Shown: piece by piece, positions 1 through 32,087 of the stretch
How positions within the stretch are numbered: position 1 is the stretch's first letter
How the letters are laid out: each line of letters starts with the position of its first letter
Source of the DNA: Lentimonas sp.
GTDB taxonomy: Bacteria; Verrucomicrobiota; Verrucomicrobiia; Opitutales; Coraliomargaritaceae
Assembly: GCA_047617435.1 (NCBI GenBank)
Contig: JBLGBC010000001.1
Span: 5,502 to 69,501, forward strand
Reading direction: 5' to 3'
DNA: 64,000 bases
Notes under the pieces: generated by a model
Databases searched by the model: none
Seen by the model: only the letters and a program-made list of their open reading frames with translations
Told to the model about the DNA's origin: nothing
Program-made: the position numbers and the translations under genes

Positions 1-123
1 GCGTATTCAGTGCTCCAATTGGCGCGACGTAGCATTAAATACAGGTTTGCCTTGCCGCTTCGATTGGGTTGCGATTGTTCTTGATTGCACAAAGTGCTAT
101 TGGATAGCTTTCGTTTTTTATAC

Positions 124-423
124 ATGATAATTACCACAGTTACTCCCCGAGGCCTTGAAGTCTCGTTTGACGTAGAATCGTTGGATGCGGCCAACGCAGC
201 TGAGGTGAAGGCGACCCTGAAAGGGCTTGATTTACAGGGTCAGTCGCACGTCGTGCTCAATCTGCAAAAAGTTGAATTTATCGACAGCTCCGGCATCGGG
301 GCCATTTTGAGTTTTTATAAGGAAATGGAACATCGGGTCAGTTTGCGCCACCCGAGTCCGACGGTACTGAGCGTTCTTGAATTACTTCGCCTGCATACTA
401 TTTTTGAAATCGAATCCGAATAG
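124..423 (+). CDS. STAS-domain protein (SpoIIAA/RsbV-like anti-sigma-factor antagonist)
   Basis: ORF track 85..423 starts at TTG. The in-frame ATG at 124 gives about 99 aa, typical of single-domain STAS. Motif VEFIDSSGIGAIL carries the phosphorylatable DSSG serine (nt 283-294). Confidence 0.85.
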   Translation: MIITTVTPRGLEVSFDVESLDAANAAEVKATLKGLDLQGQSHVVLNLQKVEFIDSSGIGAILSFYKEMEHRVSLRHPSPTVLSVLELLRLHTIFEIESE

Positions 424-437
424 GCTCGAATACGTTT

Positions 438-1523
438 ATGACTGAGCGTGTCGACTTGCCTGCCGGTTTGGATGCGCAATTGACAGCGCATTTTGAGCGG
501 TCACGTCAGTATTTTCAGTCGTTGGGGACCGCTTGCCCGCAAGCGTTGATTCTCGGGGGCGGCTATGGTCGTAACGAGGGGGGTGTCGCAGCGAATGCAG
601 CCGGAGCGCCCTGTTTTTTTAATGATTTGGACTACTTCGTTTTTACGGACCGTCCCCGCGACGCCGCCCTGTTGACTGCAGTGCAGCGGTGGGAGCGTGC
701 CGAGAGCAAACTGCTTGGGGTTGATGTGGAGGCCAAGTGCTTAGCCCGGTGTGATTTAGCGCAGACCGGCGAGTCGATGATGTTTTTTGATTTGGTGTTG
801 GGCCACACGGTGGTGCTCGGGCCCGGTGATTTTTTACAGTCGTATCGGTCGTTGGCTCAAGCTGAAAGCATTCATGCGATTGAGGCGACTCGTTTGCTGT
901 GGAATCGTGGCTCGGGTTTACTTTTTGCGCGAGTGGATCTGGAGGCGGGGCGCGATTTGGAGGTGGTGCATCGCAATCAGTCCAAGGTCAAGCTGGCGTT
1001 GGGGGATGCGTGGTTGACCGTTCGCGGGCTGTATCAGTCTCATGCGTGCGAGCGCCACAAGGTGCTCTGTGAGCAGGTGGATGTAGCTGCGCGGATCAAA
1101 GAGCTGCATCAGTGTGGGCTGGCTTTTAAGTTGAATCCGACTCGTGCGCCCGAATTGGCCGAGTTGGAACGGATACAAGTGGAACTGGTGGCGCATTGGC
1201 GTCGCTGTTTTCTTGAGGTTGAAGCGGTGCGGCTGGCCACGTCTTTTGCCGACTCAGCGGGCTATGTCACGTATCCACAGCGGCTCTTTCCAGCTCGTTC
1301 ACTCTGGCGGAATCTGTTGTTAAGTGCGCGCGATCGGCTCCGGCGCGGGGGTGCGCTGCGACCCTTGGGCGACTATCCGCGGGGGGCATTGCAACGCGTT
1401 TTGCTGGCGCTGTTGGAGGCCGAACCGGATTATTTGAAAGTCAGCCGATTGCTCGGAACGCCGGTTTTCAGCTTGTCAGCTGCCGTGGCGGTGTATCGTA
1501 AGTGGTGGGAGTTTTATAGTTAG
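438..1523 (+). CDS. hypothetical protein with a nucleotidyltransferase-fold-like N-terminus
   Basis: 361-aa ORF with an ATG start, 15 nt after the STAS stop. N-terminus LGGGYGRNEGG...FNDLDYFVF...VDVEAK resembles the pol-beta NTase pattern (G-G/S...D-x-D plus a third acidic residue). The rest is unrecognised. Confidence 0.55.
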   Translation: MTERVDLPAGLDAQLTAHFERSRQYFQSLGTACPQALILGGGYGRNEGGVAANAAGAPCFFNDLDYFVFTDRPRDAALLTAVQRWERAESKLLGVDVEAKCLARCDLAQTGESMMFFDLVLGHTVVLGPGDFLQSYRSLAQAESIHAIEATRLLWNRGSGLLFARVDLEAGRDLEVVHRNQSKVKLALGDAWLTVRGLYQSHACERHKVLCEQVDVAARIKELHQCGLAFKLNPTRAPELAELERIQVELVAHWRRCFLEVEAVRLATSFADSAGYVTYPQRLFPARSLWRNLLLSARDRLRRGGALRPLGDYPRGALQRVLLALLEAEPDYLKVSRLLGTPVFSLSAAVAVYRKWWEFYS

Positions 1524-1530
1524 CCTGTTC

Positions 1531-2739
1531 ATGACCATTCCGAAGCCTCGAGTTCTTTTTTTTATGCCCTATATCCCGTATCCAGTGGATCGGGGCACTT
1601 ATCAGCGGGTGTATCATTTATTACTCGAACTTTCGGGGTCTTTTGAAATTGATCTGGTCTGCCTGCAAGAAGACGCGAGTCGGACGATGGCGCCCTTTGA
1701 GTCGTACACGCGGCGGCGCTTGGCGATCCCGTTTGTGCATCCGCCGTGGCCGAAGCTTTTCCCGCAGCGTCTATTGAATCCGTTGCCGACGACCGTGACG
1801 CATTGGCAGTCTGAGTGGGTGGAATCCGCATTGGCAGAGTTCATCCAAGGGGAGGATTACGATCGGGTGCTCTTTATCGACTTGGTGCTGTGGCCCTACG
1901 TGAAAAAGCTGTTTCCCGATCATCCGCAGCGGATTATGGACCGCAGTCGGGTGGATTGGCTCTTTCAGACTGAGGAGTACACTACCTTGGATTGTAGTTG
2001 GAAGGAGCGTTTCTTGCGGCAGGAAAATTTGTTCAAACTCGCGCGCTTGGAGCGTGCGGCCTACGCCGAGTTGTGTGGCATGATTGTTTGCGGCGCGGAT
2101 GATCGCGATTTTTTGGAGGCGAAACTCGGAGATGCGGAGAAGGTTTTTGTGTTGGCAAATGGCTACAATGAGCAGTTTTTCGATGTGGCTGCCTGGCCGC
2201 GCCAGCCATCGGCGGTGCCGAGTCTTTTGTTTTGTGGTGCGTTGGATTATAGTCCGAACGTGGATGCGATTGATTGGTTTGCGGGTCATATTTGGCCGCA
2301 CATCCACCGAGCGATGCCAGAGGTGATCTGGCGCATTGTGGGTAAATCGCCGGATCATCGTGCGGCCGCTTGGGCGGGGTTGCCGGGGGTTGAACTGGTG
2401 GGGGAGGTGGCAGATGTACGACCGTACTATCAGTCGGCGTGGTTGCAGGTCGTCCCCTTGCGGATCGGCGGGGGTACGCGACTGAAGATTGTGGAATCTC
2501 TGGGCATGTGTTGCCCGGTGGTTTCGACCACTTTGGGCGCGCAAGGTCTCAATTTAAAAGATAACCGGGAGCTGCTGCTGGCGGATCAGGCGGAGGTCTT
2601 CGCTGCGCAGGTCATCCACTTGTTGCGTTCTCCTGCGGAGAGTGCTTCCCTGGCGCGGGCCGGATTGCAGGCCGTACGTGAGAATTACTGCTGGCGTCAG
2701 TTGGGCGTTCAATTAAATGACTACATGCTAAATTTATGA
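1531..2739 (+). CDS. glycosyltransferase, GT-B fold (GT4-like)
   Basis: 402-aa ORF. C-terminal half has LLFCGALDYSPNVDAI...GGGTRLKIVESLGMCCPVVSTTLGAQGL, typical of the GT4/Glycos_transf_1 E-x7-E region. Confidence 0.8.
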   Translation: MTIPKPRVLFFMPYIPYPVDRGTYQRVYHLLLELSGSFEIDLVCLQEDASRTMAPFESYTRRRLAIPFVHPPWPKLFPQRLLNPLPTTVTHWQSEWVESALAEFIQGEDYDRVLFIDLVLWPYVKKLFPDHPQRIMDRSRVDWLFQTEEYTTLDCSWKERFLRQENLFKLARLERAAYAELCGMIVCGADDRDFLEAKLGDAEKVFVLANGYNEQFFDVAAWPRQPSAVPSLLFCGALDYSPNVDAIDWFAGHIWPHIHRAMPEVIWRIVGKSPDHRAAAWAGLPGVELVGEVADVRPYYQSAWLQVVPLRIGGGTRLKIVESLGMCCPVVSTTLGAQGLNLKDNRELLLADQAEVFAAQVIHLLRSPAESASLARAGLQAVRENYCWRQLGVQLNDYMLNL

Positions 2740-4181
2740 GTGCTGCAGGTCGCGATATCGCCTTTCTACTCGGATTACCCTTTAACGTCATGACGATGGA
2801 TCAGGCGGTTGATGATGCTGTGGCGCACATTCAAAGCAGGCGACCGGGCTATTACATTACTGCGAATGCTGATTTCGTGGCGCAGGCGTGTCATAACGAT
2901 GCGTTGAGAGATATAATATTCCATGCCGATCGGATCCTGTGTGATGGGATGCCGCTGGTCTGGTTGTCACGTTATTTTAAGCCGAGCTTACCCGAGCGTG
3001 TTGCTGGATCTGATTTGGTCTTTCGTTTGTTTAAAGAAGCGGATGCACGCAATTGGTCGGTGTTTTTCTTAGGCTCGGATTCGCATACGTTAGGCAATGC
3101 CAGGGCTATCCTGTCACAGGAGTATCCGCGGATGAACTTGTGCGGGACTTTTTCGCCCCCCATTGGCTCGGTCGAGTCGTGGCCGAATGAGGCCATGGTG
3201 GAGGCGATCCAGGCCGCACAGCCGGACCTACTGCTGGTGGCGGTGGGGTGTCCGAAGCAGGAGTTGTGGATTTCCAAATATTATCAAGACCTGGGTGTGC
3301 CGCTTTCAATCGGAATTGGTGCTTCATTGGATTTTGTGTGTGGGACGCAGCGTCGGGCCCCTCGCTGGATTCAACAAGTCGGAATGGAATGGATGTGGCG
3401 GCTGCTCAATAATCCGAAGCGCATGCTCAAACGTTATGCCTTCGATTTCTATTATTTGCTGCTGCTGGTTTATCGTCAATGGCAGTGCCTGCGACAGCGC
3501 GGCTCTGAGCGGGTCGCTGCGGATACTGTAAGTTTAGTTGACGAGCCGCAGGAGCGTGGCGGGGGCGTATTGGAGTCCTCGGTCTGTTGGCTGGTTTGGG
3601 AGGGAGCGGTCGAGTACGCTCATTTGGGCGCGTTGCCTGTTCCTGAGGGTTATAGCGCGCCTGTCTTTATCGATTTATCTCGAGTTGATTTTATCGACAG
3701 TTCGGGGATTGGGCTGTTGGCCAAGGTGGCGCGCCAAGCGCGACAGGCTAAGGTCGTTTTCGGCTTACTTCGGCCGAGTGGAGTGGTTGGCTCGATACTC
3801 AAAGCGATGCAATTGGAGGCTCAATTACCTACTTATGCCGATCGAGCTGCAGCGCTGGCTGCGTTGGTGGGGAGTCCGGGGAACTCAGTCCAACGACTCA
3901 AGCTGTCGCCATCATCTATAACTCAGAACCACTGCGCATGGAGTGAGTCATTGCAAACGGCGGTAGCAGCACTGGCAGCGGGTGGTCGCTTGGTGGTGGA
4001 TCTGAGTGAGATCGACCGGGTCGACTCATTTGCGATATCCTGTTTCGTTGCTCTGCATGAGCAAGCGTTGCAGCGGGGCGCTACGTTTCGAGTTGAGCAT
4101 TTATCCGCACAGGCGGTTCAGGCGATGAAGATGGCGGATGTATATGATACTTTGGTTTATAATGTAGCACAGCATGATTAA
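2736..4181 (+). CDS. WecG/TagA/CpsF-family (GT26) glycosyltransferase fused to two C-terminal STAS domains
   Basis: 481 aa, with an ATGA overlap onto the upstream gene. N-terminal ~250 aa has GT26 hallmarks (ILCDGMPLVWLSR, VAGSDL, VFFLGS, LLLVAVGCPKQELW, GIGASLDF). These are followed by VFIDLSRVDFIDSSGIGLLAKVARQ (STAS 1, DSSG at nt 3696-3707) and LVVDLSEIDRVDSFAISCFVALHEQ (STAS 2). Confidence 0.8.
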   Translation: MSAAGRDIAFLLGLPFNVMTMDQAVDDAVAHIQSRRPGYYITANADFVAQACHNDALRDIIFHADRILCDGMPLVWLSRYFKPSLPERVAGSDLVFRLFKEADARNWSVFFLGSDSHTLGNARAILSQEYPRMNLCGTFSPPIGSVESWPNEAMVEAIQAAQPDLLLVAVGCPKQELWISKYYQDLGVPLSIGIGASLDFVCGTQRRAPRWIQQVGMEWMWRLLNNPKRMLKRYAFDFYYLLLLVYRQWQCLRQRGSERVAADTVSLVDEPQERGGGVLESSVCWLVWEGAVEYAHLGALPVPEGYSAPVFIDLSRVDFIDSSGIGLLAKVARQARQAKVVFGLLRPSGVVGSILKAMQLEAQLPTYADRAAALAALVGSPGNSVQRLKLSPSSITQNHCAWSESLQTAVAALAAGGRLVVDLSEIDRVDSFAISCFVALHEQALQRGATFRVEHLSAQAVQAMKMADVYDTLVYNVAQHD

Positions 4182-5343
4182 ATCGACTGCACACAAGCCC
4201 CGGGTGTTGCTCTCCGCCGGGATGATTCAAGCGGGGCACTCCGGTGTCGGTCGCTACGTGGTTGAGCTAGCGAATCGTATGGCAGCAATGGAGTCGATTG
4301 ACTTGTATGTTGCGGGGTTGGATGCGGATCGTGGCCTTTTTGAGCGGATGGCGGATGACCGTTGGCTTTCGATTCCTGCGGCATTCGGCGGGGGCGTGAA
4401 GAATCTAATCTGGCACCAGTGGCACTTGCCCCGTTTATTGCGCTTGGGGCACTATGATTTGCTGCATATTCCGAGTTATCGGCGTATTGTGGGGTATTGC
4501 CCCGTGCCGCAAATAGCGACGGTGCATGATTGTGCGCCGTTTCATCTGAGGGATAAGTATGGGTTCTTACGGGGTTTGTTTGGGCGTCATCTGGCACCGT
4601 GGTTGGCTCGGCGCTGCGATCGGATCGTGTCGGTCAGTGAGTCTTCCAAACAGGATATCGTGAAGTTTTATCATTTGGGAGCCGAACGGGTGGATGTGGT
4701 ACTTAACGGACTCGATCACCATGCGTACCACCCGATGAGCGCGGAGCAGCTTGCTTCCTTTCGTCAGAACAAAGGATTCAATCAGCCGTATTTTCTGTAT
4801 ATTTCCCGGCTGGAGCATCCGGGAAAAAACCACCTGCGTTTGATTCAGGCGTATGAATCCTATCGGGAGCAATCGGGTGCGAATGTACAATTGGTGTTGG
4901 GCGGAGCGCCTTGGCTGGGGGCGGAGGTGATTGAGGCACGGGTGGCGGCCTCGCCCTACCGTGCGGACATTCGGATGGCTGGATTTTTAGCAGAGTCGGA
5001 TCTGCCCGGCTGGTATGCCGCAGCGGAAGCGTTGATCTTTCCGAGTTTGATGGAAGGCTTTGGGCTGCCGGTGATTGAGGCGCTGGCTTGCGGGTTGCGC
5101 GTAGCGACTTCGAATTGCAGTAGTCTGCCTGAGGTGGGGGGAGCCGCGGCCTTGTATTTTGATCCCTATTCCACGGTAGAAATTGCTGCTGCGCTGCTGA
5201 CTTTGTGCCGGGAAAATGGAGTGGAGCGAGCGAGTCGGATCGAGCAGGGGCTGCAACAGGCGGCCCGATATGATTGGGATCAGGCGGCAATGGCGACTTG
5301 CCAGCTTTATTTAAAGACCATTAATGTTGTTCCATCCCCATAA
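4174..5343 (+). CDS. glycosyltransferase family 4
   Basis: 389 aa. YFLYISRLEHPGKNHLRLIQA...LIFPSLMEGFGLPVIEALACGLRVATSNCSSLPEV is classic GT4. Confidence 0.85.
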   Translation: MIKSTAHKPRVLLSAGMIQAGHSGVGRYVVELANRMAAMESIDLYVAGLDADRGLFERMADDRWLSIPAAFGGGVKNLIWHQWHLPRLLRLGHYDLLHIPSYRRIVGYCPVPQIATVHDCAPFHLRDKYGFLRGLFGRHLAPWLARRCDRIVSVSESSKQDIVKFYHLGAERVDVVLNGLDHHAYHPMSAEQLASFRQNKGFNQPYFLYISRLEHPGKNHLRLIQAYESYREQSGANVQLVLGGAPWLGAEVIEARVAASPYRADIRMAGFLAESDLPGWYAAAEALIFPSLMEGFGLPVIEALACGLRVATSNCSSLPEVGGAAALYFDPYSTVEIAAALLTLCRENGVERASRIEQGLQQAARYDWDQAAMATCQLYLKTINVVPSP

Positions 5344-5364
5344 TTACATTCTGAATGTAGGCTG

Positions 5365-8468: not shown

Positions 8469-8470
8469 CG

Positions 8471-12093: not shown

Positions 12094-12617
12094 GATTCAA
12101 ACGCTTTGTTCGTATTTAACATTCGCTCAGGATTTAGGGTGTTTTTGGTTTGCTGTTCGATTCTTCCATGCGGGTGCACTTTCGTCAGTGATTGAGGTCA
12201 GTGATTGAGTGAAACGTACTATCGCTGAGTGAATACCAGAAATATCGAAAAGAGGCGGCAGTTGCGGAGCGTCCCGTCGGGCATTTTCAGGGTGCCGCAG
12301 TTGCACCGCATTTGCAATGGAAGCGGGGTCAATCCGAAGAGTTCCAGCGGGTAATCGCCACGCAAAGCAGTCCATCCAAGCGTGAGCTGTATGCGCCACA
12401 ATCTCTGGCGCATACAGAGGGGATTCGAAGTGCCACCAAGACTGCTGTGGCTACTCGATCGCTGTCAATACCTGCGGGGCGCTTCGAACTCTAGCATCCC
12501 CATTTTAGGGGTATCCCGGTACATCAGTTCGCCGATTGTATCGTCGGGATCGGGCAGTCGCGCATGTGCCGTTTTTTGCCGGCCCAAACCCAGCGGATCC
12601 ATTTTCTTTATACGTTT

Positions 12618-12645
12618 TTGAGTTGATTTCAACTAAGTTTATGCT
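12618..12645 (+). promoter_or_regulatory. candidate sigma-70-like promoter (TTGAGT-16 nt-TATGCT) upstream of the second PEP-CTERM gene
   Basis: Hexamers read directly at 12618-12623 and 12640-12645, about 100 nt upstream of the ATG at 12745. No experimental support. Confidence 0.25.
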
Positions 12646-22306: not shown

Positions 22307-22316
22307 GGCGCAGGGC

Positions 22317-26896: not shown

Positions 26897-28028
26897 GATA
26901 CATGACCGGGTAAATGTCCTCTAAGCGTTCAACCGGTTGTGGTGTTTCGAAATTGGAAAGCCAGCAGGCCGCGCTATCTTTATGCTCCGGGGCATAGCCG
27001 TGCATTCCCGGCAGCGTGCTAAGGTTAAGAAAGGAGGGGACGAAGAGTGTGCCCGGATGGAGGAGGTAAAAGAGTTCACCGTAGGTTTGATGCGGGAAAT
27101 TGCAGCGCCATTTTTCTAGGGTATCCGCATCCAGGATTCGGCCTTCGGGGGCGGATTCGAGGAGTTGTGTAATTTGTTGTTTCGCGCAGTCATTGTGAAA
27201 CCAAAAGCGCGCCATCGTTGAATCCCAGACTGCGACGTAATCAGGGCCATAGCGCAAGGGTAGTTTTTCACAGCGCGTTCTTAGATCTGAATTTTCCTGC
27301 ACTTCGGTCATGCCATGATCACTAAATATGGAAAGCCGCACATTTTGGTAGTTTTGCTCGGCGAGCTGCATCAAGTTTTCAACTTTTACATCAAAGGTGT
27401 TGAATGCTGCTTTAGTTTGCGGTGACCATGGGCCATAGCGGTGCATGGTGGCATCGAGCCCGGCAGTAAACAGGTAGAGTAATTCGACCTCGCCTGCTTG
27501 TATCAGTGCCTCCGCTTCAGCGTAATTGTCGGCATCTCCGCTGCGCCAGTTTGAGCGATGCCAGATTTTACCCGAGCGTTTCCACGCTTCAAAGATGCTT
27601 TCTTGGCCGCCGATGATACCGTTCGGTTCATAGATGTCCTTTTTTTCGGTGTAATCCAGCCACGGTAAACAGCGGAAAGGGACACTGTAGAGCTGAAAGT
27701 AGCCGGTGTAGCCTTTGACTTTGGCAAAGATTCGACTGAGCCGATTGCGCAACTTATGGTAGCCGGCAATACGCTCCGGGAGCCAGCCGAGCCAGCGCAT
27801 GCAGCGAAAGGGGGACTGGGCCGGGGGAGCTTTTACGAAGAAAGAAAAGTGCCCATGTTCATGGGGCGAAGTTCCGGTCAAAATAGTCGGATCGCAAGTG
27901 GCGGAGTAGCCAAAGAGTGTTTCACATTTTCTTTGGTAGGGCGCGACCGATTTCAGTATGCCGTAGTGCTGAACCAGCTCCCAACCCAGCGCGTCTGCAA
28001 ATATGAATAAGTGCACCGTTTTCTTCAT
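26874..28028 (-). CDS. alkaline-phosphatase-superfamily enzyme (nucleotide pyrophosphatase/phosphodiesterase-like)
   Basis: 384 aa. Metal and nucleophile positions are recognisable: IFADALGWE, SATCDPTILTGTSPHEHG, AGLDATMHRYG, IFSDHGM, GMHGY. Confidence 0.65.
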   Translation of the reverse strand: MKKTVHLFIFADALGWELVQHYGILKSVAPYQRKCETLFGYSATCDPTILTGTSPHEHGHFSFFVKAPPAQSPFRCMRWLGWLPERIAGYHKLRNRLSRIFAKVKGYTGYFQLYSVPFRCLPWLDYTEKKDIYEPNGIIGGQESIFEAWKRSGKIWHRSNWRSGDADNYAEAEALIQAGEVELLYLFTAGLDATMHRYGPWSPQTKAAFNTFDVKVENLMQLAEQNYQNVRLSIFSDHGMTEVQENSDLRTRCEKLPLRYGPDYVAVWDSTMARFWFHNDCAKQQITQLLESAPEGRILDADTLEKWRCNFPHQTYGELFYLLHPGTLFVPSFLNLSTLPGMHGYAPEHKDSAACWLSNFETPQPVERLEDIYPVMYHAAQSKD

Positions 28029-28393
28029 TTCAGGTCCAGGAATTCTTTAATGAGTTTCTGCAGCTTGCGCGGGCTGAATGGTTTCGCGAGCAGCGCATCC
28101 GGATTCAGCGCCTTGATGGCATTCAGTTCCTCATCCTGAACCGCCGCGGTTACGAAGACGATGGGGATGTGCTTGCCATTGGGCATTTCGCGAATGCGAC
28201 GATAGAGTTCGACCCCATTGATGTCGGGTAAACTGTAGTCCAGCACCGCGAGGTCGGGGGCGATACTTTCAAATTTTTCGAGCGCGGAGGTGCCGTCGTT
28301 AAAGAAAAAACCTTCACAGCCCGCTCGTTTGACTTGCAGCTGAAAGAGCCGAAACATGACGATATCATCATCAACTACTAGAACCTTTTTCAT
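28025..28393 (-). CDS. single-domain response regulator (CheY-like receiver)
   Basis: 122 aa. VLVVDDD...DLAVLDYSLPDING...VFVTA...LAKPF. ATGA-type overlaps on both sides. Confidence 0.9.
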   Translation of the reverse strand: MKKVLVVDDDIVMFRLFQLQVKRAGCEGFFFNDGTSALEKFESIAPDLAVLDYSLPDINGVELYRRIREMPNGKHIPIVFVTAAVQDEELNAIKALNPDALLAKPFSPRKLQKLIKEFLDLK

Positions 28394-30105
28394 AATGTAT
28401 TGCGAGATAATATCAGCACGGTTTCATCATCTTCCTGTAAGATGTTTTGAGTGTGTCGGGCGGCATCCATTTTATTGTGAAATAGATCCCACAGCTCGGC
28501 TGGGGCGATGTCACGATGTGTTTCAAACCAGTGCACCATGTCATCCCAATTATATCGATTCCCATCGGCCTGTGTCCACTCATAGAGTCCATCGGTGACG
28601 ATCAGTAGTCGATCCTGTGGGGCTAATTGGATTCGATTTTCGGTGTATTGCATCTCCCGGAATAAGCCGATTGGCGGGCCGCTTGAGACCAGTTGTGTTG
28701 TTTTGCCGTCTGCGGTGAAGAGCAATGCGGGCGGGTGCCCCGCTCCGGCGTAGGACAGTTCGTGAGTCGTCGGGTTCAGTTTGAATACAAATGCGGTGAT
28801 AAACATCGTGGCCTCTCCGAGCTGAGCTTCGAGTGCCATATTGGTATATTTGAGAAAGTTCGAGAGTGAGCCACCCCGGTGGTTGAATGCGATAAATTGG
28901 CTGCGGAAAATCCCGGCCAGAATGGCCGCAGAGATGCCTTTGCCCATCACATCGATGACGCATGCAGTGTACTCCCCCTCACTATTCAAGCTGACTTCGA
29001 CGAAGTCCCCCGCGACTTCCAATGCGCTGATGCTATGTATTAACAGATCGTAGCCGGGTATATTCGCTGGTTCGTGGCTAATGGGCAGTAATTGGCGCTG
29101 TAATTTAGTCGCGATATTTATTTCGGTGGATAGGCGCTGTCGTTCATCCCGTTCTTTTTCCATTAGTCTGCGGGAGAGCGTTGCTGCGAAGATGTCGGCG
29201 AGTGCCTTTAGGTGATGGACATCATTCGAACGAATCTCTCTTGTTTCGTTGGCATAGGCTACCGCGATGAGACCGACGACTCGGTCGCTAACCAAAATGG
29301 GCACACAAGCGCCGGTCGGGTACTCGTCAATACGATCAAACGGCTTATGCGGGCTCTTCGTGTTCCAGATTAGCGCGCCACTTTGCTTTAGCAGTTGCCA
29401 GTTTCCTTCCAATAAATGGCCAAAGAATGCATGTGCTTCGACTTTATCAATCCACTCCAATGCCTCAATGTTCATGCTTTGGTGCATTTCTATGTTGATC
29501 GCATCGTAATCGCGCGAATCCATGAAAATCTCCAATCCAGACCTGATGGAGTGGTCAATCAGCTGATCTTCGAGTAAGTTTTCGGCCATGCGATCGTAGA
29601 GTGATAGACTCTCGTAGCAGTCGGATAGCTCATCCATGATGGCATCCATTTCTTCATTCTGTGCTGTAACGTTGTTTAACCGTTCATAGTGTTTACCCAT
29701 CTGAGCCGTATAACCGGATGCGCTGATCCAGTGTTCATGCGTATCCGAAAAGTTGTGGATAATGAATAAACCTCGCCCCCCTTCGGCGAGCGGGTCCGCC
29801 GGCAGTCTGGGGGTGGCCTGTTGTTCTTTGGATGGCCCCGGGCCCTCGTCTTGTGTCTCCAGCCAGATGGAGTTGCCCTGCGCCCACCAGCGCGCAGAAA
29901 TTATTTTTTCAGGTAAGCCATAGCTACCGTGTTCGATCGCGTTGTTGACGGCTTCGGTAAATGTGAGTTTCCAGCCCTCTTTTTCGGTGTCATTCAACCC
30001 CAAAGAAAGTAGGAATTCGATGAACTTCGACCTCACATCGGGAATAATTTGAGGGTCTGCCGAAAACTGGTATGCGTAAATGCTTAAGCTGGCTTCACTA
30101 TTCAT
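28390..30105 (-). CDS. fusion protein: RsbW/SpoIIAB-like serine kinase (HATPase_c_2) + GAF-like region + PP2C/SpoIIE phosphatase
   Basis: 571 aa. The N-terminus has EAVNNAIEHG (N-box), DEGPGP and GGRGLFIIHNF (G-boxes). The C-terminus has ATKLQRQLLP, EVAGDFVEV, VIDVMGKGISAAILAG, YAGAGHPPALLF and LLIVTDGLYE, which is SpoIIE/PP2C. Confidence 0.8.
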   Translation of the reverse strand: MNSEASLSIYAYQFSADPQIIPDVRSKFIEFLLSLGLNDTEKEGWKLTFTEAVNNAIEHGSYGLPEKIISARWWAQGNSIWLETQDEGPGPSKEQQATPRLPADPLAEGGRGLFIIHNFSDTHEHWISASGYTAQMGKHYERLNNVTAQNEEMDAIMDELSDCYESLSLYDRMAENLLEDQLIDHSIRSGLEIFMDSRDYDAINIEMHQSMNIEALEWIDKVEAHAFFGHLLEGNWQLLKQSGALIWNTKSPHKPFDRIDEYPTGACVPILVSDRVVGLIAVAYANETREIRSNDVHHLKALADIFAATLSRRLMEKERDERQRLSTEINIATKLQRQLLPISHEPANIPGYDLLIHSISALEVAGDFVEVSLNSEGEYTACVIDVMGKGISAAILAGIFRSQFIAFNHRGGSLSNFLKYTNMALEAQLGEATMFITAFVFKLNPTTHELSYAGAGHPPALLFTADGKTTQLVSSGPPIGLFREMQYTENRIQLAPQDRLLIVTDGLYEWTQADGNRYNWDDMVHWFETHRDIAPAELWDLFHNKMDAARHTQNILQEDDETVLILSRNTL

Positions 30106-30111
30106 TGGTGA

Positions 30112-31278
30112 TTATTTGATGTCTTTGATCCAGCTGTCAAAGATCTGGCGAAGTTGTTCGGGTTCAATCGATGCTTGATACACGCAGTGTGAGGATTCTT
30201 CGAATGAGCCGATCTCCAGCTCTCCCATCAAATCTGCATAACTAAATGCACCGAGCGTCGCATCGCGCAAGATGGATCTCCATTCATGGTTCAATTCGGT
30301 TAAGGCTGCGGTGGGGCGAGGCGTGACGCCGAAGAGCGCGAGTTTTCCCTGTATGACTAATTTTAGCCAAGGCGCGCGCGCCTGTAGGCTTGTATCGATG
30401 GGCTTCGGCCACACTCGGCCTTTTGCGTCGGTGAAGGTTTCAGTCGTCCGTGGCTTTTGCTTGGTCCAGTTCCGGTAGAGTCGCAGGGCAATCCATCGGT
30501 CATAGATCGTCGGTTTCGATCTCGTTTTATTTTTATTTTCAGAGACTCCGCTCGCTAAAAATGCATCCAGACTCTTAATCCGCGCACGGTGCTTAAAATT
30601 GATTAATTCGTTTCGATGGATGGTTGCATCCTTGAGATTAATCTCCGGTCCCAAATAGGTGTGGGTGCCCAAGTGAGCCCGCTCCAGATTATTGCCGCCA
30701 GCTAGTATGCATCCGTCTTGGATGACGGCTCCCGGGCCCACGGTACAATTCGGCCCGATGGAAACAAAATTCCCGATCCAGTAGGGTGGGGTAAATATGA
30801 CATCATCTGCGATTTCACAATTCTTTCCTATGGCCGCAAAGTATCCATACTTTTTAGTCTCCTCGGCGAAAATAACGAGCCACTCTTGCTCCAGTTTATG
30901 CCAGTATAATATCAAAGACCAGGCATCGTCGGGGTAGCTTTCCTTAGGCGGCGTATTTGGCAGGCGATTCACGCAGTCATGAACTGTGGCGTCCTGGATT
31001 GACTGGACTGTATGCACTTCGATCTGAAGTGGCCAGAGCGAGGCCTCGGAGATTTGTCTACGTACATCATCATGCCGGTCTGCGACGTAGAGTGCCACTT
31101 TTTGAGTGCCTTGATCCACCGCCGCATCGAGCCAGTGGAAAAGCAGCGCCTGTTCGCCGACAGGCCATAGGGCAAAAGGCAGCTTACGTTGCCAGACTTT
31201 ATCAATATCACCCCAGTCCGCTAATGACAGATGCCATGTCTTCGGACCCTCAGGTCGGTGTTCAGTGGATTGCGTCAT
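30112..31278 (-). CDS. hexapeptide-repeat (LbH) protein with a degenerate sugar-transferase-like C-terminal segment
   Basis: 388 aa. The central region IGNFVSIGPNCTVGPGAVIQDGCILAGGN is a left-handed beta-helix. The C-terminal LKLVIQGKLALFGVTPRP...LGAFSYADLMG parallels LINVLRGEMSLVGPRPP...PGLTCLWQIGG of the adjacent priming transferase. Confidence 0.55.
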   Translation of the reverse strand: MTQSTEHRPEGPKTWHLSLADWGDIDKVWQRKLPFALWPVGEQALLFHWLDAAVDQGTQKVALYVADRHDDVRRQISEASLWPLQIEVHTVQSIQDATVHDCVNRLPNTPPKESYPDDAWSLILYWHKLEQEWLVIFAEETKKYGYFAAIGKNCEIADDVIFTPPYWIGNFVSIGPNCTVGPGAVIQDGCILAGGNNLERAHLGTHTYLGPEINLKDATIHRNELINFKHRARIKSLDAFLASGVSENKNKTRSKPTIYDRWIALRLYRNWTKQKPRTTETFTDAKGRVWPKPIDTSLQARAPWLKLVIQGKLALFGVTPRPTAALTELNHEWRSILRDATLGAFSYADLMGELEIGSFEESSHCVYQASIEPEQLRQIFDSWIKDIK

Positions 31279-31286
31279 GCGTGGAT

Positions 31287-32087
31287 CTAGTAAGCCCCGC
31301 GCCCGATAATTACAGCAGGTATGGTTTTTATTAAAATCAAGAGATCTTGGCGTAGACTTTGAGAATGGATGTATTGCAGGTCCAGGCGAACTTGGCCTTC
31401 AAAGTCAATTTCGGCTCGTCCTCCGATTTGCCACAGGCAGGTTAGGCCGGGCTTTGCTCTCAGGCGACGCAGGTGGCGCGCGCCGTACAAAGCAACTTCT
31501 CTCGGGACTGGCGGGCGCGGGCCCACGAGTGACATTTCCCCACGCAGCACATTTATCAGTTGTGGGAATTCATCCACTGAGAACCGGCGCAACCATTTTC
31601 CGGGTTTCGTTATACGTGGGTCATCTTTTAGTTTGAAGGTGATGCCGCCCGCATGCTGGTTGCGGTCTAATAATTGCTCCTTTATTCCATCCGCATTCAG
31701 CAGCATCGTGCGAAACTTAAGCATCGTGAACAGACGACCGGCTTCCCCGACGCGGTCCTGTTTATAGAAAATCGGGCCATTATCGTAGCGCTTTATCGCG
31801 AGAATGGAGATGAGGAAAATCGGTGAGAATAACATCAGTGCAAAGATGCTCCCGCAAAAATCCAACAATCGTTTCATGGCAAAAGCCAAACGAACGATAC
31901 AGCGCCAACGCATTTGTTTGATACGTGCCTTGCGATGCCACTTTTCCGCATTGCCAGAGAGTAGCACTTTACCCCAGAAAATGTTTTCGGGTGTGTTTTT
32001 AGGTGCTCCAGGTACAGTTGGCATGGATTTTTTGTAAGTAGACGAGGATTTCGGGTGCAAAATCACAGCCGAAGGGGGTATATCCAT
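31287..32087 (-). CDS. polyprenyl-phosphate glycosyl-1-phosphate transferase (bacterial sugar transferase, priming enzyme)
   Basis: KRLLDFCGSIFALMLFSPIFL...GPIFYKQDRVGEAGRLFTMLKFRTM...DEFPQLINVLRGEMSLVGPRPP is the PF02397 pattern. The start is uncertain: in-frame ATGs at 32087, 32024, 31913 and 31877, with 31877 (MKRLLDF) typical of small PGTs. Confidence 0.85.
   Translation of the reverse strand: MDIPPSAVILHPKSSSTYKKSMPTVPGAPKNTPENIFWGKVLLSGNAEKWHRKARIKQMRWRCIVRLAFAMKRLLDFCGSIFALMLFSPIFLISILAIKRYDNGPIFYKQDRVGEAGRLFTMLKFRTMLLNADGIKEQLLDRNQHAGGITFKLKDDPRITKPGKWLRRFSVDEFPQLINVLRGEMSLVGPRPPVPREVALYGARHLRRLRAKPGLTCLWQIGGRAEIDFEGQVRLDLQYIHSQSLRQDLLILIKTIPAVIIGRGAY

What the first reader, a model, noticed from the sequence alone, without database searches (positions are those of the whole stretch)
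85..32087. A ~32 kb PEP-CTERM/exosortase EPS locus built as two convergent operons with an embedded partner-switching circuit and no visible sigma/anti-sigma target
**Seen in sequence:**
- 17 plus-strand and 12 minus-strand genes are packed with ATGA/TAATG overlaps or gaps of 15 nt or less.
- They encode a full Wzx/Wzy-type pathway: a priming PGT, about 9 GTs, flippase, polymerase, PCP and two OPX exporters.
- They also encode an exosortase module with two PEP-CTERM substrates.
- Interleaved are three STAS domains (one free, two fused to a GT26), one RsbW-like kinase/PP2C phosphatase fusion and one receiver.

**Established:** STAS/RsbW/PP2C modules normally regulate a sigma factor by partner switching.

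**Inference:** Here the output appears to be the glycan machinery itself, specifically the STAS-tagged GT26. That would be post-translational control of EPS or PEP-CTERM glycoprotein production. I am not aware of this wiring having been characterised.
Basis: partly seen in the sequence, partly recalled or inferred. Interest (0 to 1): 0.8.

Follow-up and report, generated by a model that had tools for sequence, protein, structure and literature searches.

The report
Phospho-switch wired into EPS glycosyltransferase locus
A Lentimonas (Verrucomicrobiota) exopolysaccharide gene cluster carries its own kinase/phosphatase switch, apparently aimed at a sugar-adding enzyme with built-in STAS "switch" domains rather than at a sigma factor; this logic was recently shown in Vibrio and cyanobacteria but not for this enzyme family or phylum.

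Summary
Window 85-32087 is a tightly packed, convergent two-operon Wzx/Wzy-type EPS locus with an exosortase/PEP-CTERM module. It encodes a free STAS protein, a GT26 (TagA/WecG-like) glycosyltransferase with two C-terminal STAS domains, an RsbW-like kinase-GAF-PP2C fusion and a stand-alone receiver. All these calls pass HMM significance. No sigma or anti-sigma gene occurs in the 64 kb window or in nine related loci.

The regulatory genes are not a chance insertion. Free STAS, GT26-STAS, kinase-PP2C and REC co-occur with PGT, an LbH protein and a phosphodiesterase in about 30 Verrucomicrobiota species, in shuffled gene orders. The STAS phospho-serine is kept in 113/116 GT26-STAS homologues. It is lost in the loci that lack a nearby kinase and free STAS. 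The kinase and PP2C catalytic residues are conserved.

Its claim that the wiring is uncharacterised is outdated: V. fischeri SypA/SypE and Anabaena All4160/HenR/Alr3423 (2026) are functional precedents. The exosortase link is not conserved.

Verdict: a new variant of a known kind, namely a GT26 enzyme with C-terminal STAS in a new phylum, with the complete module in cis. Interest is moderate.

The parts
124..423 (+). Free single-domain STAS protein (99 aa from ATG 124; the longest ORF starts at TTG 85). The predicted phospho-acceptor is Ser55, in the motif FIDSSGIG (codon 286-288).
   Evidence: PF01740 E 5e-13 and TIGR00377 E 9e-12. The closest PDB sequences are SpoIIAA. The DSSG motif is invariant in 22 orthologues.
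438..1523 (+). Conserved 361-aa protein with no family assignment and a Pol-beta-type nucleotidyltransferase-like fold. Its role is unknown; it is probably biosynthetic.
   Evidence: No Pfam, NCBIfam or PDB-sequence hit. 400 homologues, all named hypothetical apart from one UniRef name read only in truncated form (P0263). AF2 model: pLDDT 96.4, pTM 0.91. Foldseek matches HalB, ANT(4') and MNT nucleotidyltransferases with E down to 7e-4 and TM 0.3-0.5. Invariant motif GGGYGRxEGG...NDLDYF.
1531..2739 (+). GT4 glycosyltransferase resembling the TIGR03087 PEP-CTERM/XrtA-system GT (below cutoff).
   Evidence: PF13692 E 1e-21; TIGR03087 201 bits against a cutoff of 317. Conserved next to the 361-aa protein in about 27 loci.
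2736..4181 (+). GT26 (TagA/WecG, GT-E fold) glycosyltransferase with two C-terminal STAS domains. Residues 1-247 form the GT26 domain including the TagA-type C-terminal appendage. Residues about 260-280 form a disordered linker. STAS1 spans about 283-378 (Ser322, codon 3699-3701). STAS2 spans about 385-476 (Ser431, codon 4026-4028).
   Evidence: PF03808 E 2e-57, STAS_2 E 6e-20, STAS E 4e-17. TagA 7mpk E 7e-35, aligned through the appendage. TagA catalytic residues are conserved: T42, D70, R222/R229/R233. AF2 model: pLDDT 89.5, pTM 0.80. Foldseek TMt is 0.90-0.94 to TagA and about 0.7 to SpoIIAA/RsbV. D321 is kept in 116/116 and S322 in 113/116 homologues.
4174..5343 (+). GT4 glycosyltransferase that overlaps the GT26-STAS stop by 8 nt. 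In some relatives it is fused to GT26-STAS as GT26-STAS-GT4.
   Evidence: PF00534 E 1.5e-22. Fusion proteins P0053, P0057, P0060, P0062 and P0063; locus L085.
5365..7362 (+). Putative polysaccharide co-polymerase (chain-length determinant-like). The assignment is weak.
   Evidence: TIGR03007 E 4e-10, far below cutoff. A 661-665-aa protein is conserved at the same position in L003 and L085.
7359..9544 (+). Two tandem OPX (Wza-like) export proteins, at 7359-8468 and 8471-9544. They are 36% identical paralogues.
   Evidence: Poly_export plus SLBB_2.
9544..11067 (+). Wzx-type flippase.
   Evidence: PF01943 E 3.5e-12 and PF13440.
11215..13614 (+). Two paralogous secreted DUF4114 proteins with PEP-CTERM-like tails (11215-12093 and 12745-13614), separated by a 651-nt spacer.
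   Evidence: DUF4114. 66% identity. The 'ANPEP[SA]-TM-RRR' tail is conserved in orthologues.
13614..17428 (+). Exosortase module: TPR protein (13614-15572), exosortase (15569-16363), roughly 170-aa multi-TM protein (about 16360-16872) and EpsI/DUF3485-like protein (16841-17428).
   Evidence: PF09721 E 5e-14, TIGR04178 41 bits against a cutoff of 23, DUF3485 28.9 against 26.1. Frame analysis. The same gene order occurs in L086.
17397..19060 (+). GT4 glycosyltransferase (17397-18647) and a small membrane protein (18638-19060). This is the end of the plus-strand operon.
   Evidence: PF13692 E 2e-22.
19070..25238 (-). Distal part of the minus-strand operon: uridine kinase (19070-19702), Wzy_C polymerase/ligase-like protein (19699-21072), GT4 (21065-22306), GT2 (22317-23120), GT2 (23113-23985) and GT4 (23982-25238).
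   Evidence: Start codons refined. The same order occurs in C. algicola locus L004.
25235..28028 (-). CBS-domain family II (DHH) pyrophosphatase (25235-26896) and a Phosphodiest/NPP-family enzyme (26874-28028). The phosphodiesterase is part of the conserved regulatory neighbourhood.
   Evidence: DHH, CBS and DHHA2 domains; NF011443 307 bits; PF01663 E 6e-17. The phosphodiesterase follows REC in L002, L004, L087, L088 and L089.
28025..28393 (-). Stand-alone receiver (CheY-like). It overlaps the kinase-PP2C gene by ATGA. Predicted phospho-acceptor Asp52; Asp8, Asp9, Thr82 and Lys104 are present.
   Evidence: PF00072 E 2e-21. Sequence read. It lies immediately downstream of kinase-PP2C in all seven annotated relatives that carry the fusion.
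28390..30105 (-). RsbW/SpoIIAB-like serine kinase (residues 14-125), a GAF-like middle domain and a SpoIIE-type PP2C phosphatase (376-568), all in one polypeptide.
   Evidence: HATPase_c_2 E 3e-17, SpoIIE E 2e-41, GAF_2 E 2e-4. PDB matches: SpoIIAB and RsbW for the N-terminus; RssB-type PP2C (3eq2) and Rv1364c for the C-terminus. The N-box (E51, N55, H59, G60), G1 (D86), G2 (G110-R-G112) and PP2C metal ligands (D367, D385, D505, D559, D560) are at least 90% conserved in 112 homologues.
30112..31278 (-). 388-aa left-handed beta-helix (hexapeptide) protein. It is always encoded immediately after the PGT.
   Evidence: Hexapep E 6e-8, GMPPB_C. PGT-Hexa adjacency in L001, L002, L004, L085, L086, L088 and L089. 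The L089 orthologue also hits Bac_transf.
31287..32087 (-). Small (266 aa) Bac_transf polyprenyl-phosphate glycosyl-1-phosphate transferase. It is the priming enzyme and the first gene of the minus-strand operon.
   Evidence: PF02397 E 8e-62; TIGR03025 269 bits.

Best explanation
This is a self-contained, post-translational phospho-switch built into an exopolysaccharide assembly line.

**Proposed sequence of events**
1. The small PGT primes undecaprenyl phosphate.
2. The TagA-like GT26 enzyme carries out an early, probably committing, glycosyl transfer at the membrane.
3. Two STAS domains hang off the GT26 C-terminus. They sit directly behind the amphipathic appendage that, in TagA, must dock on the membrane to complete the active site.
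4. The RsbW-like kinase domain of the kinase-GAF-PP2C protein phosphorylates the conserved Ser after the invariant Asp. The targets are STAS1 (Ser322), probably the free STAS protein (Ser55), and possibly STAS2 (Ser431).
5. The PP2C domain of the same polypeptide removes the phosphate.
6. The balance between kinase and phosphatase is set by the translationally coupled receiver protein and the GAF-like middle domain.
7. The receiver is fed by a histidine kinase. That kinase is encoded elsewhere in this genome. In relatives it lies in cis, as an H-NOX-, PAS/GAF- or FIST-linked hybrid kinase.

By analogy with SypA-S56 and All4160-S74, the unphosphorylated state should permit EPS synthesis and phosphorylation should shut it off. 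The free STAS protein most likely acts as a competing substrate or partner for the same kinase. That would make this a true partner switch in which a glycosyltransferase occupies the place of the sigma factor.

**Shown here**
- Domain identities.
- Intact catalytic and phospho-acceptor residues.
- Conserved co-localisation.
- Absence of sigma genes.

**Inferred**
- Who phosphorylates whom.
- The direction of the effect.
- The role of the free STAS protein.
- The GT26 reaction step.
For: **Domains and catalytic competence**
- Domain calls are significant.
- The kinase N, G1 and G2 boxes and the PP2C metal ligands are at least 90% conserved in 112 homologues.
- STAS1 keeps D321 in 116/116, S322 in 113/116 and G326 in 116/116 homologues.
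- Where STAS2 is present, Asp is kept in 56 and Ser in 54 of about 59 homologues.
- The free STAS DSSG motif is invariant in 22 orthologues.
- The GT26 domain keeps the TagA catalytic residues Thr, Asp and the appendage arginines. Its AF2 model superposes on TagA with TMt 0.90-0.94.

**Conserved linkage**
- Sixteen GT26-STAS/kinase-PP2C pairs share a contig, as judged by matching contig length.
- Annotated loci L001-L004 and L085-L089 all carry the set, in divergent, convergent or co-linear orders.
- A tblastn survey of GTDB species representatives shows free STAS plus GT26-STAS in about 28 loci. The PGT-Hexa-kinasePP2C-REC-Phosphodiest block is present wherever the flank reaches it.
- Kinase-PP2C homologues at only 25-28% identity still sit in the same module.

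**Correlated loss**
Seven loci have a STAS-like extension (weakly matched in L044) but no kinase or free STAS within 10 kb. All seven lack the DS[SAGT]G motif.

**Fusions**
GT26-STAS-GT4 fusion proteins place the STAS domain physically between two EPS enzymes.

**No sigma factor**
None is found in the window or in the nine annotated loci.

**Precedents**
- SypA/SypE.
- All4160/Alr3423/HenR.
- Activation of TagA through its membrane-binding appendage.
Against: - There is no biochemical or genetic evidence for this system; everything rests on sequence and synteny.
- The cognate histidine kinase is not in the window, so the input in this genome is unknown.
- L028/L086 keeps the DSSG motif with no kinase or free STAS within 10 kb. 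Cis-linkage is therefore not absolute.
- A sigma factor encoded elsewhere cannot be excluded.
- AF2 output gave no coordinates. Whether the STAS domains contact the GT26 active site or appendage is untested.
- Related species are not independent samples, so the counts overstate the statistical support.
- TagA and WecG act on GlcNAc-PP-Und made by MraY-type enzymes, whereas the primer here is a Bac_transf PGT. The step catalysed by this GT26 enzyme is uncertain.
Confidence: 0.6

Rival explanations
1. A canonical partner switch with an unlinked sigma factor. In this reading the kinase domain is an anti-sigma factor for a sigma encoded elsewhere, and that sigma transcribes the EPS operons. The free STAS protein is the antagonist. 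The STAS domains on GT26 act as an input or decoy that reports the state of the pathway to the kinase, not as the output.
For: The kinase domain's closest solved relatives are the anti-sigma factors SpoIIAB and RsbW. The free STAS protein is closest to SpoIIAA. The window covers only 64 kb of the genome.
Against: No sigma70-family gene occurs in the window or in nine annotated related loci. By contrast, GT26-STAS co-localises with the kinase across two orders of Verrucomicrobiota. The phospho-Ser on the enzyme-fused STAS is as conserved as that of the free STAS. In the two characterised analogues the output is below transcription or on the enzyme itself.
Confidence: 0.13
2. The fused STAS domains are not phospho-regulated. 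They would be scaffolding or ligand-binding modules, as in MlaB or the SulP STAS domains, that tether GT26 to the neighbouring GT4 or to other assembly proteins. The kinase/phosphatase would act only on the free STAS protein. That protein would then control another, unidentified target, as proposed for SypA.
For: GT26-STAS-GT4 fusions suggest a linker or scaffold role. STAS2 has a divergent motif (DSFAIS/DSRAVG). MlaB and SulP STAS domains appear among the structural matches. SypA's target is still unknown.
Against: STAS1 keeps the full kinase-substrate motif hhDS[SAGT]G-hG in 113/116 homologues. The motif decays exactly where no kinase or free STAS lies nearby. That pattern is hard to explain if the serine were irrelevant. 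A STAS-fused GT has been shown to be a kinase substrate in Anabaena.
Confidence: 0.2
3. The regulatory genes sit in this locus by chance, as a passenger insertion, and are functionally unrelated to EPS synthesis.
For: None beyond the general mobility of signalling genes.
Against: The same set recurs in about 30 species in different gene orders, and down to 25% identity of the kinase-PP2C protein. Junctions are translationally coupled: ATGA overlaps at REC/kinase-PP2C and at Phosphodiest/REC.
Confidence: 0.02

Closest known systems
Vibrio fischeri syp locus: SypA (STAS) and SypE (RsbW-like kinase - REC - PP2C)
   Same: - A single-domain STAS protein and a bifunctional kinase/phosphatase polypeptide are encoded inside a Wzx/Wzy-type polysaccharide locus.
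- The domain order is the same: kinase, then a middle domain, then PP2C.
- No sigma factor is involved, and control acts below transcription.
- The phospho-acceptor Ser lies at an equivalent position (SypA S56; Ser55 here) (sequence read).
   Different: - The middle domain here is GAF-like, and the receiver is a separate, translationally coupled protein.
- The locus additionally carries a glycosyltransferase with fused STAS domains, a candidate direct target that syp lacks.
- SypA's target is still unknown.
- The phylum differs (Verrucomicrobiota versus Gammaproteobacteria).
- Orthology to SypA/SypE was not tested because the sequences were not at hand.
Anabaena PCC 7120 All4160 / Alr3423 / HenR module (Harada, Matsuoka and Ehira, Mol Microbiol 2026, PMC13555669)
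   Same: - A polysaccharide-pathway glycosyltransferase carries a fused STAS domain with a phosphorylatable Ser.
- It is acted on by an RsbW-like kinase and a SpoIIE-like phosphatase with receiver-domain input.
- The output is enzyme activity, not a sigma factor.
   Different: - There the STAS is N-terminal and the enzyme is the priming Bac_transf PGT. Here the STAS is C-terminal and duplicated, and the enzyme is a GT26 (GT-E) transferase. The PGT here has no STAS domain.
- In Anabaena the genes are dispersed. Here the kinase and phosphatase are one polypeptide and everything lies in one locus, together with an extra free STAS protein.
- That paper regards the strategy as lineage-specific to cyanobacteria. 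This family is in Verrucomicrobiota.
Canonical partner-switching systems (B. subtilis RsbV/RsbW/RsbU; SpoIIAA/SpoIIAB/SpoIIE)
   Same: The three protein modules are the same: a STAS antagonist, a GHKL serine kinase and a PP2C phosphatase. The catalytic and phospho-acceptor motifs are intact.
   Different: No sigma factor is encoded nearby. The kinase and phosphatase are fused. Additional STAS domains are fused to a biosynthetic enzyme.
TagA/TarA (GT26, GT-E fold) wall-teichoic-acid ManNAc transferase
   Same: The GT26 domain aligns over its full length, including the C-terminal appendage (E 7e-35; TMt 0.90-0.94). The catalytic Thr and Asp and the appendage arginines are conserved.
   Different: TagA ends after the appendage. 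Here about 235 further residues (a linker plus two STAS domains) follow it. The pathway is a Gram-negative-type EPS primed by a Bac_transf PGT, not by a TagO/WecA-type enzyme. The donor and acceptor sugars are unknown.
PEP-CTERM/exosortase-associated EPS loci (Haft's XrtA/EpsH systems)
   Same: The locus has an exosortase, an EpsI-like protein, PEP-CTERM-tailed substrates, a TPR protein, and GTs, OPX and PCP proteins resembling the TIGR03087/03088/03027/03007 families.
   Different: None of the XrtA-system equivalog models reaches its cutoff, and no Xrt subtype is assigned. The partner-switching module is not a described part of those systems. In relatives it travels independently of the exosortase genes.
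Other non-sigma partner-switching-like systems (P. aeruginosa HsbR/HsbA, SiaABCD; Nostoc HmpU/V/W; Bordetella BtrU/V/W). The Pseudomonas systems are cited from my own knowledge; Hmp and Btr are mentioned in PMC10120452 and PMC13555669.
   Same: STAS/kinase/PP2C modules are redirected to biofilm, motility or secretion outputs.
   Different: In those systems the outputs are diguanylate cyclases, FlgM, or unknown targets. None involves a GT26-fused STAS domain.

Membership tests
Canonical sigma-factor partner-switching system | STAS-domain antagonist with a phosphorylatable Ser/Thr after a conserved Asp | tested here: met
   PF01740 E 5e-13. The DSSG motif is invariant in 22 orthologues.
Canonical sigma-factor partner-switching system | RsbW/SpoIIAB-type GHKL serine kinase with N, G1 and G2 boxes | tested here: met
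   HATPase_c_2 E 3e-17. The boxes are at least 90% conserved. SpoIIAB and RsbW are the best PDB matches.
Canonical sigma-factor partner-switching system | PP2C (SpoIIE/RsbU-type) phosphatase | tested here: met
   SpoIIE E 2.4e-41. The metal-binding Asp residues are conserved.
Canonical sigma-factor partner-switching system | A cognate sigma factor that is bound by the kinase and usually co-encoded | tested here: not met
   No sigma or anti-sigma domain occurs in any ORF of the 64 kb window or in loci L001-L004 and L085-L089. Binding to an unlinked sigma factor is not testable here.
Syp-type STAS/kinase-phosphatase control of a polysaccharide locus | A free STAS gene and a single polypeptide with an N-terminal RsbW-like kinase and a C-terminal PP2C, both encoded within an EPS locus | tested here: met
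   architecture compared with the description of SypE in PMC10120452.
Syp-type STAS/kinase-phosphatase control of a polysaccharide locus | A central receiver domain within the kinase-phosphatase protein | tested here: not met
   The middle domain is GAF-like (E 2e-4; GAF families were precomputed in several homologues). The receiver is a separate downstream gene.
Syp-type STAS/kinase-phosphatase control of a polysaccharide locus | Sequence orthology to SypA/SypE | not tested
STAS-fused glycosyltransferase phospho-switch (All4160 type) | A STAS domain fused to an EPS-pathway glycosyltransferase | tested here: met
   GT26 plus two STAS domains in one ORF. 435 homologues, nearly all with PF03808 plus PF01740. 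The enzyme family (GT26 versus Bac_transf) and the position of the fusion (C- versus N-terminal) differ.
STAS-fused glycosyltransferase phospho-switch (All4160 type) | A conserved phospho-acceptor Ser in the fused STAS domain | tested here: met
   S322 is kept in 113/116 homologues. It is lost where no kinase lies nearby.
STAS-fused glycosyltransferase phospho-switch (All4160 type) | Phosphorylation by an RsbW-like kinase and dephosphorylation by a SpoIIE-like phosphatase controls enzyme function | not testable with these tools
   Only co-localisation and motif conservation could be shown.
GT26 WecB/TagA/CpsF glycosyltransferases | GT-E fold with the catalytic Asp/Thr and the Arg-bearing C-terminal appendage | tested here: met
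   PF03808 194 bits; TIGR00696 129 bits against a cutoff of 69. Alignment to 7mpk. Foldseek TMt 0.90-0.94. T42, D70, R222, R229 and R233 are invariant.
PEP-CTERM/exosortase system | Exosortase (EpsH family) membrane protein | tested here: met
   PF09721 52.8 bits against a cutoff of 25.7; TIGR04178 41.4 against 23.
PEP-CTERM/exosortase system | Substrates with a C-terminal PEP motif, a TM helix and a basic cluster | tested here: met
   The tails 'ANPEPSFWLMMGA..LYRR' in both paralogues are conserved in six orthologous loci. No Pfam or TIGR PEP-CTERM model hit appeared at the thresholds used.
PEP-CTERM/exosortase system | Assignment to a defined exosortase subtype (XrtA and others) | tested here: not met
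   The best subtype scores are 19-32 bits against cutoffs of 200-475.
Wzx/Wzy-dependent polysaccharide pathway | Priming PGT, flippase, polymerase, PCP and OPX | tested here: inconclusive
   The PGT, Wzx, Wzy_C protein and two OPX proteins pass their Pfam cutoffs. The PCP is only a weak TIGR03007 match (38.7 bits against 279), though its position is conserved.

The most novel reading that the evidence does not exclude
GT26-STAS enzymes may be the missing class of direct partner for EPS-locus STAS/kinase modules.

In this reading the kinase domain binds and phosphorylates the glycosyltransferase's own STAS domain, which prevents the TagA-type appendage from docking on the membrane. The free STAS protein competes for the same kinase. 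This would be a genuine partner switch in which an enzyme replaces the sigma factor.

The switch would be driven by NO/O2/redox-sensing H-NOX or PAS-GAF kinases through the stand-alone receiver. If so, the target of SypA-like proteins in other bacteria is likely to be a glycosyltransferase of the same pathway.
Probability: 0.3. Interest if true: 0.7.

Novelty: new variant of a known kind. Interest (0 to 1): 0.55.

Why it matters
Partner-switching modules are usually read as sigma-factor regulators. Two systems, Vibrio Syp and Anabaena All4160/HenR (published 2026), show that they can gate polysaccharide synthesis post-translationally.

The family described here extends that logic in three ways:
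- to a third phylum, Verrucomicrobiota, which includes marine polysaccharide specialists such as Lentimonas and Coraliomargarita;
- to a different enzyme class, GT26/TagA-like, with a C-terminal STAS fusion;
- to a complete circuit in cis: sensor kinases in relatives, a receiver, a kinase-phosphatase fusion, a free STAS protein and the STAS-tagged enzyme.

This has three consequences:
- It contradicts the suggestion that STAS-glycosyltransferase control is lineage-specific to cyanobacteria.
- It acts as a Rosetta-stone hint for the unknown target of SypA.
- It defines clean experiments (Ser-to-Ala and Ser-to-Asp alleles, kinase assays) in cultured relatives.

It also exposes an uncharacterised, confidently folded nucleotidyltransferase-like family that is conserved in the same loci.

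Tried and rejected
- **RNA elements.** An Rfam scan of the whole window found only two tRNAs outside the locus. There is no riboswitch or leader in the 147-nt and 651-nt gaps.
- **Promoters and terminators.** The scan of 10.9-19.8 kb gave counts no higher than shuffled sequence, so it says nothing about operon boundaries.
- **The 361-aa protein.** Sequence-level identification failed against Pfam, NCBIfam and a PDB profile search. Only the AF2 model plus Foldseek gave a lead (nucleotidyltransferase fold), and TM scores were modest.
- **Cis histidine kinases.** I searched the window for homologues of the kinases seen in relatives (H-NOX, PAS-GAF hybrid HK, REC-HisKA protein). Only generic receiver-level similarity appeared.
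- **The PAS-PAS protein at 36423-37601.** I considered it as the input sensor, but it has no kinase domain and lies outside the conserved locus, so I did not pursue it.
- **STAS docking on GT26.** I hoped to see this in the AF2 model, but the tool returns no coordinates or PAE. Only pTM 0.80 and a disordered linker at 260-280 are known.
- **Conserved sequence in the gaps.** A tblastx of the intergenic gaps against related loci gave no hits.
- **Literature.** A search for STAS together with WecG or GT26 showed none of the 12 papers listed with both kinds of term.
- **Contig-length matching.** It was used as a proxy for 'same contig' in 16 pairs. Direct look-up verified it for three pairs (C. 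algicola; the 132-kb contig of L085/L087; the 15.8-kb contig of L001); L002 holds a further pair whose kinase-PP2C gene was not matched by sequence to P0182.

Full report
**Source and layout**

The GT26-STAS protein and the neighbouring 361-aa protein are 100% identical to proteins of a Lentimonas sp. MAG (Verrucomicrobiota) on a 70,201-bp contig.

ORF listing and start-codon refinement show two convergent gene blocks. Their stop codons are 9 nt apart.
- The plus-strand block runs from 85/124 to 19060.
- The minus-strand block runs from 32087 down to 19070.
- All minus-strand junctions lie between -23 and +10 nt.
- Plus-strand junctions lie between -32 and +21 nt, except for gaps of 147 nt and 651 nt around the first PEP-CTERM gene.
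- An apparent 477-nt gap after the exosortase is in fact filled by a roughly 170-aa multi-TM gene (about 16360-16872) that overlaps the exosortase stop by ATGA. The ORF 16394-16747 is an out-of-frame artefact. A 158-aa gene sits at the same place in L086.

**Check of the observation**

- Free STAS: E 5e-13.
- GT26 (PF03808, E 2e-57) with two STAS stretches (E 6e-20 and 4e-17).
- HATPase_c_2 (E 3e-17) plus a weak GAF hit plus SpoIIE/PP2C (E 2e-41) in one 571-aa protein.
- A stand-alone receiver: E 2e-21.
- A small Bac_transf PGT: E 8e-62.
- Five GT4 and two GT2 enzymes, Wzx, a Wzy_C protein and two OPX paralogues.
- An exosortase, an EpsI-like protein and a TPR protein.
- Two DUF4114 paralogues, 66% identical, with 'ANPEPSFW-TM-YRR' tails. 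These tails are conserved in orthologues.

The PCP call is weak (TIGR03007, 38.7 bits against a cutoff of 279). No Xrt subtype is assigned.

The locus also holds a uridine kinase, a CBS-DHH pyrophosphatase, a Phosphodiest/NPP-family enzyme, a hexapeptide (LbH) protein and an unassigned 361-aa protein.

The remaining 32 kb of the window contains housekeeping genes. It has no sigma factor, anti-sigma factor or histidine kinase.

**Are the regulatory parts functional?**

The phospho-acceptor sites are conserved.
- In 116 GT26-STAS homologues, STAS1 keeps Asp321 in 116/116, Ser322 in 113/116 and Gly326 in 116/116.
- Where STAS2 is present, it keeps Asp in 56 and Ser in 54 of about 59 sequences.
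- The free STAS protein keeps F/L-x-DSSG-x-G in all 22 orthologues. Its Ser55 is positionally equivalent to SypA Ser56.

The catalytic residues are conserved. In 112 kinase-PP2C homologues, these are at least 90% conserved:
- the N-box (E51, N55, H59, G60);
- G1 (D86);
- G2 (G110-R-G112);
- the PP2C metal ligands (D367, D385, D505, D559, D560).

The receiver has the DD...D52...T...K set.

The GT26 domain looks active.
- It aligns with TagA over its whole length, including the C-terminal appendage (E 7e-35).
- It keeps the TagA catalytic residues Thr37, Asp65 and Arg214/221/224 as T42, D70 and R222/R229/R233. These are invariant in 66 homologues.
- AF2 gives pLDDT 89.5 and pTM 0.80, with a disordered linker at residues 260-280.
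- Foldseek matches TagA with TMt 0.90-0.94 and SpoIIAA/RsbV with TMt about 0.7.

**Is the co-localisation conserved?**

It is, and strongly so.

GT26-STAS has 435 homologues, and nearly all listed carry both domains. They come in three architectures:
- GT26-STAS;
- GT26-STAS-STAS;
- GT26-STAS-GT4.

The kinase-PP2C fusion has 295 homologues, almost all listed about 570 aa long; the full-length ones keep the same architecture. Sixteen pairs share a contig, as judged by matching contig length.

Annotated neighbourhoods show the same set in different orders.

| Locus | Arrangement | Gene order |
|---|---|---|
| L001 | Divergent | REC, kinasePP2C, REC-protein, PAS/GAF hybrid HK, Hexa, PGT on one strand; STAS, GT26-STAS, GT4, CBS-PPase on the other |
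| L002 (Akkermansiaceae MAG) | Divergent | GTs, Phosphodiest, REC, kinasePP2C, Hexa, PGT on one strand; STAS, 366-aa protein, GT4, GT26-STAS-STAS, GT4, Wzx on the other |
| L003/L004 (C. algicola) | Convergent, as in the window | An H-NOX protein, a hybrid HK and a REC-HisKA-like protein are inserted upstream of kinase-PP2C |
| L085/L087 | Split between two operons | STAS, 369-aa protein, GT4, HK, REC-protein, kinasePP2C and REC in one operon; PGT, Hexa, GT26-STAS-GT4 and the export genes in the converging operon |
| L088, L089 | Same module at 25-28% kinase-PP2C identity | PGT, Hexa, [STAS], kinasePP2C, REC, Phosphodiest. L089 again has an H-NOX/HNOBA-PAS-GAF kinase |

I also scanned GTDB species representatives with a profile spanning the GT26 appendage and STAS1.
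- Matches running through STAS1 (at least 160 of the 187 query residues) came only from Verrucomicrobiota: Opitutales, and the Verrucomicrobiales families Akkermansiaceae and Verrucomicrobiaceae plus Luteolibacter. The one exception is a 4.7-kb contig binned as Zhongshania, which is probably misbinned.
- A tblastn of the window's proteins against these loci found free STAS next to GT26-STAS in about 28 loci.
- The PGT-Hexa-kinasePP2C-REC-Phosphodiest block is present wherever the 10-kb flank reaches it.
- Exosortase, PEP-CTERM and TPR genes accompany the module only in some Opitutales loci.

**A natural control**

Seven loci have a STAS-like C-terminal extension on GT26 (weakly matched in L044) but no kinase or free STAS within 10 kb. 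They include Akkermansia-type loci. All seven lack the canonical motif:

| Locus | Sequence at the motif position |
|---|---|
| L031 | IDAAG |
| L037 | IDDDV |
| L041 | LESSE |
| L047 | MEEGL |
| L058 | PPLAI |
| L082 | LDSKS |
| L044 | LKSHE |

Every locus with a free STAS protein keeps the motif. One lineage (L028/L086) keeps it without a kinase in the flank. This correlated decay argues that the serine on the enzyme-borne STAS is tied to the kinase module. Two caveats apply: the flanks cover only 10 kb, and the species are phylogenetically related.

**What is known**

- *V. fischeri.* SypA (STAS, Ser56) and SypE (RsbW-like kinase - REC - PP2C) are encoded in the syp polysaccharide locus. 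Unphosphorylated SypA promotes biofilm formation at a level below transcription. SypA is the downstream partner, and its target is still unknown (PMC10120452).
- *Anabaena.* The STAS-fused glycosyltransferase All4160 (N-terminal STAS plus Bac_transf) is phosphorylated on Ser74 by the RsbW-like kinase Alr3423. It is reactivated by the REC-SpoIIE phosphatase HenR, and S74A bypasses loss of henR. The authors consider STAS-Bac_transf fusions largely confined to cyanobacteria (PMC13555669).

None of the 12 papers listed by the search for STAS together with WecG or GT26 contained both kinds of term. I found no paper on this verrucomicrobial locus.

**Proposed mechanism**

*Shown:* the domains, the intact motifs, the linkage and the absence of sigma genes.

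*Inferred:*
- The kinase domain phosphorylates Ser322 of the GT26-borne STAS1 and Ser55 of the free STAS protein. The PP2C domain reverses this.
- The receiver, the GAF-like domain or both set the balance between kinase and phosphatase.
- The receiver is fed by a histidine kinase that is not in this window. Relatives carry H-NOX/PAS-GAF/FIST-linked kinases in cis, which suggests NO, O2 or redox input.
- Phosphorylation probably switches the enzyme off, as in the two characterised systems.
- The STAS domains begin about 35 residues after the TagA-type appendage. In TagA, folding of that appendage on the membrane converts inactive dimers into active monomers and supplies Arg221 (PMC6493773). The STAS state could therefore gate appendage docking. 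This last step is speculative.
- The free STAS protein may compete for the kinase, giving a true partner switch with an enzyme in the sigma factor's place. GT26-STAS-GT4 fusions also allow a scaffolding role.

**Rival explanations**
- An unlinked sigma factor as the real output: confidence 0.13.
- Fused STAS domains as non-phosphorylated scaffolds, with the kinase acting only on the free STAS protein: confidence 0.2.
- Chance co-localisation: confidence 0.02.

**Verdict**

The system is a new variant of a known kind: Syp- and All4160-like post-translational control of polysaccharide synthesis. Three things are new: a GT26 enzyme with C-terminal STAS domains, a kinase-GAF-PP2C fusion with a separate receiver, and a family-wide distribution in Verrucomicrobiota. 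Interest is 0.55.

Noticed in passing
window 438-1523 (+): A conserved 361-aa protein has no Pfam, NCBIfam or PDB-sequence match but about 400 homologues, those with a source organism name being Verrucomicrobiota. Its AF2 model is very confident (pLDDT 96.4, pTM 0.91). It resembles Pol-beta-type nucleotidyltransferases such as HalB, kanamycin nucleotidyltransferase ANT(4'), MNT and GlnE, with TM scores of only 0.3-0.5. The invariant motif GGGYGRxEGG...NDLDYF fits that fold. It is lost together with the adjacent GT4 in L001 and L017. This looks like a new nucleotidyltransferase family of unknown substrate.
   Followed up: partly
window 16360-16872 (+): The apparent 477-nt gap after the exosortase holds a roughly 170-aa multi-TM gene in the frame of ORF 16063-16872, with an ATGA overlap onto the exosortase stop. 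ORF 16394-16747, which is rich in W, C and R, is an out-of-frame artefact. L086 has a 158-aa gene between its exosortase and EpsI genes.
   Followed up: partly
window 19070-19702, 25235-26896, 26874-28028 (-): A uridine kinase, a CBS-regulated family II pyrophosphatase and a Phosphodiest/NPP-family enzyme are conserved parts of this EPS locus in relatives. The phosphodiesterase always follows the receiver gene. Together with the nucleotidyltransferase-like protein, they hint at an unusual nucleotide-dependent glycan modification or salvage step.
   Followed up: no
window 30112-31278 (-); L089 8403-9707: The LbH (hexapeptide) protein always follows the PGT gene. Its C-terminus ('LALFGVTPRP') resembles the Bac_transf 'SLVGPRP' motif. 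The L089 orthologue registers a Bac_transf Pfam hit. This suggests a degenerate PGT-like docking domain fused to an acyltransferase-like fold.
   Followed up: partly
L004 6280-9996; L089 2171-6123; L001 3241-7624; L087 575-3576 and 6452-9999: Relatives insert sensor kinases next to the kinase-PP2C gene: H-NOX plus a hybrid HK, an HNOBA-PAS-GAF HK, or FIST plus an HK. They also insert a REC-HisKA-like protein of about 365 aa. The window's locus lacks all of these, and no homologue is present in the 64 kb.
   Followed up: yes
L037, L041, L047, L058, L082, L031, L044 (GT26 genes at about 10001 in each locus): GT26 proteins carry STAS-like extensions in loci that have no kinase or free STAS nearby, and they have lost the DSxG phospho-site motif. 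L037 has Asp-Asp at the site, a possible constitutive phosphomimic.
   Followed up: partly
L085 10001-12265; proteins P0053, P0057, P0060, P0062, P0063, P0079; L089 21059-21767: There are triple fusions GT26-STAS-GT4, and a GT4-WecG fusion at the edge of L089. These link GT26 physically with the GT4 that is the next gene in the window (4174-5343).
   Followed up: partly
window 12094-12744: A 651-nt spacer with no conserved coding hit lies between the two 66%-identical PEP-CTERM paralogues. It has no Rfam hit and no tblastx match to related loci.
   Followed up: partly
window 58649-59647 (+) and 59902-59976 (-): An IS200-like Y1 transposase-domain ORF lies next to tRNA-Asn.
   Followed up: no
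window 44779-49191 (+): Two receiver-domain proteins of about 435 aa (one with an AAA lid domain) are followed by a PilB/MshE-like T2SSE ATPase. A similar T2SSE plus REC plus HK neighbourhood lies beside the EPS locus in L086.
   Followed up: no
window 36423-37601 (-): A 392-aa protein with two PAS domains and no recognisable output domain lies 4 kb beyond the locus.
   Followed up: no
L006 (JBNMPR010000105.1, 4.7 kb): This contig is binned as Zhongshania aliphaticivorans (Gammaproteobacteria). It encodes GT26-STAS, GT4 and PCP proteins that are 55-61% identical to those of the window, so it is probably a misbinned verrucomicrobial contig.
   Followed up: no
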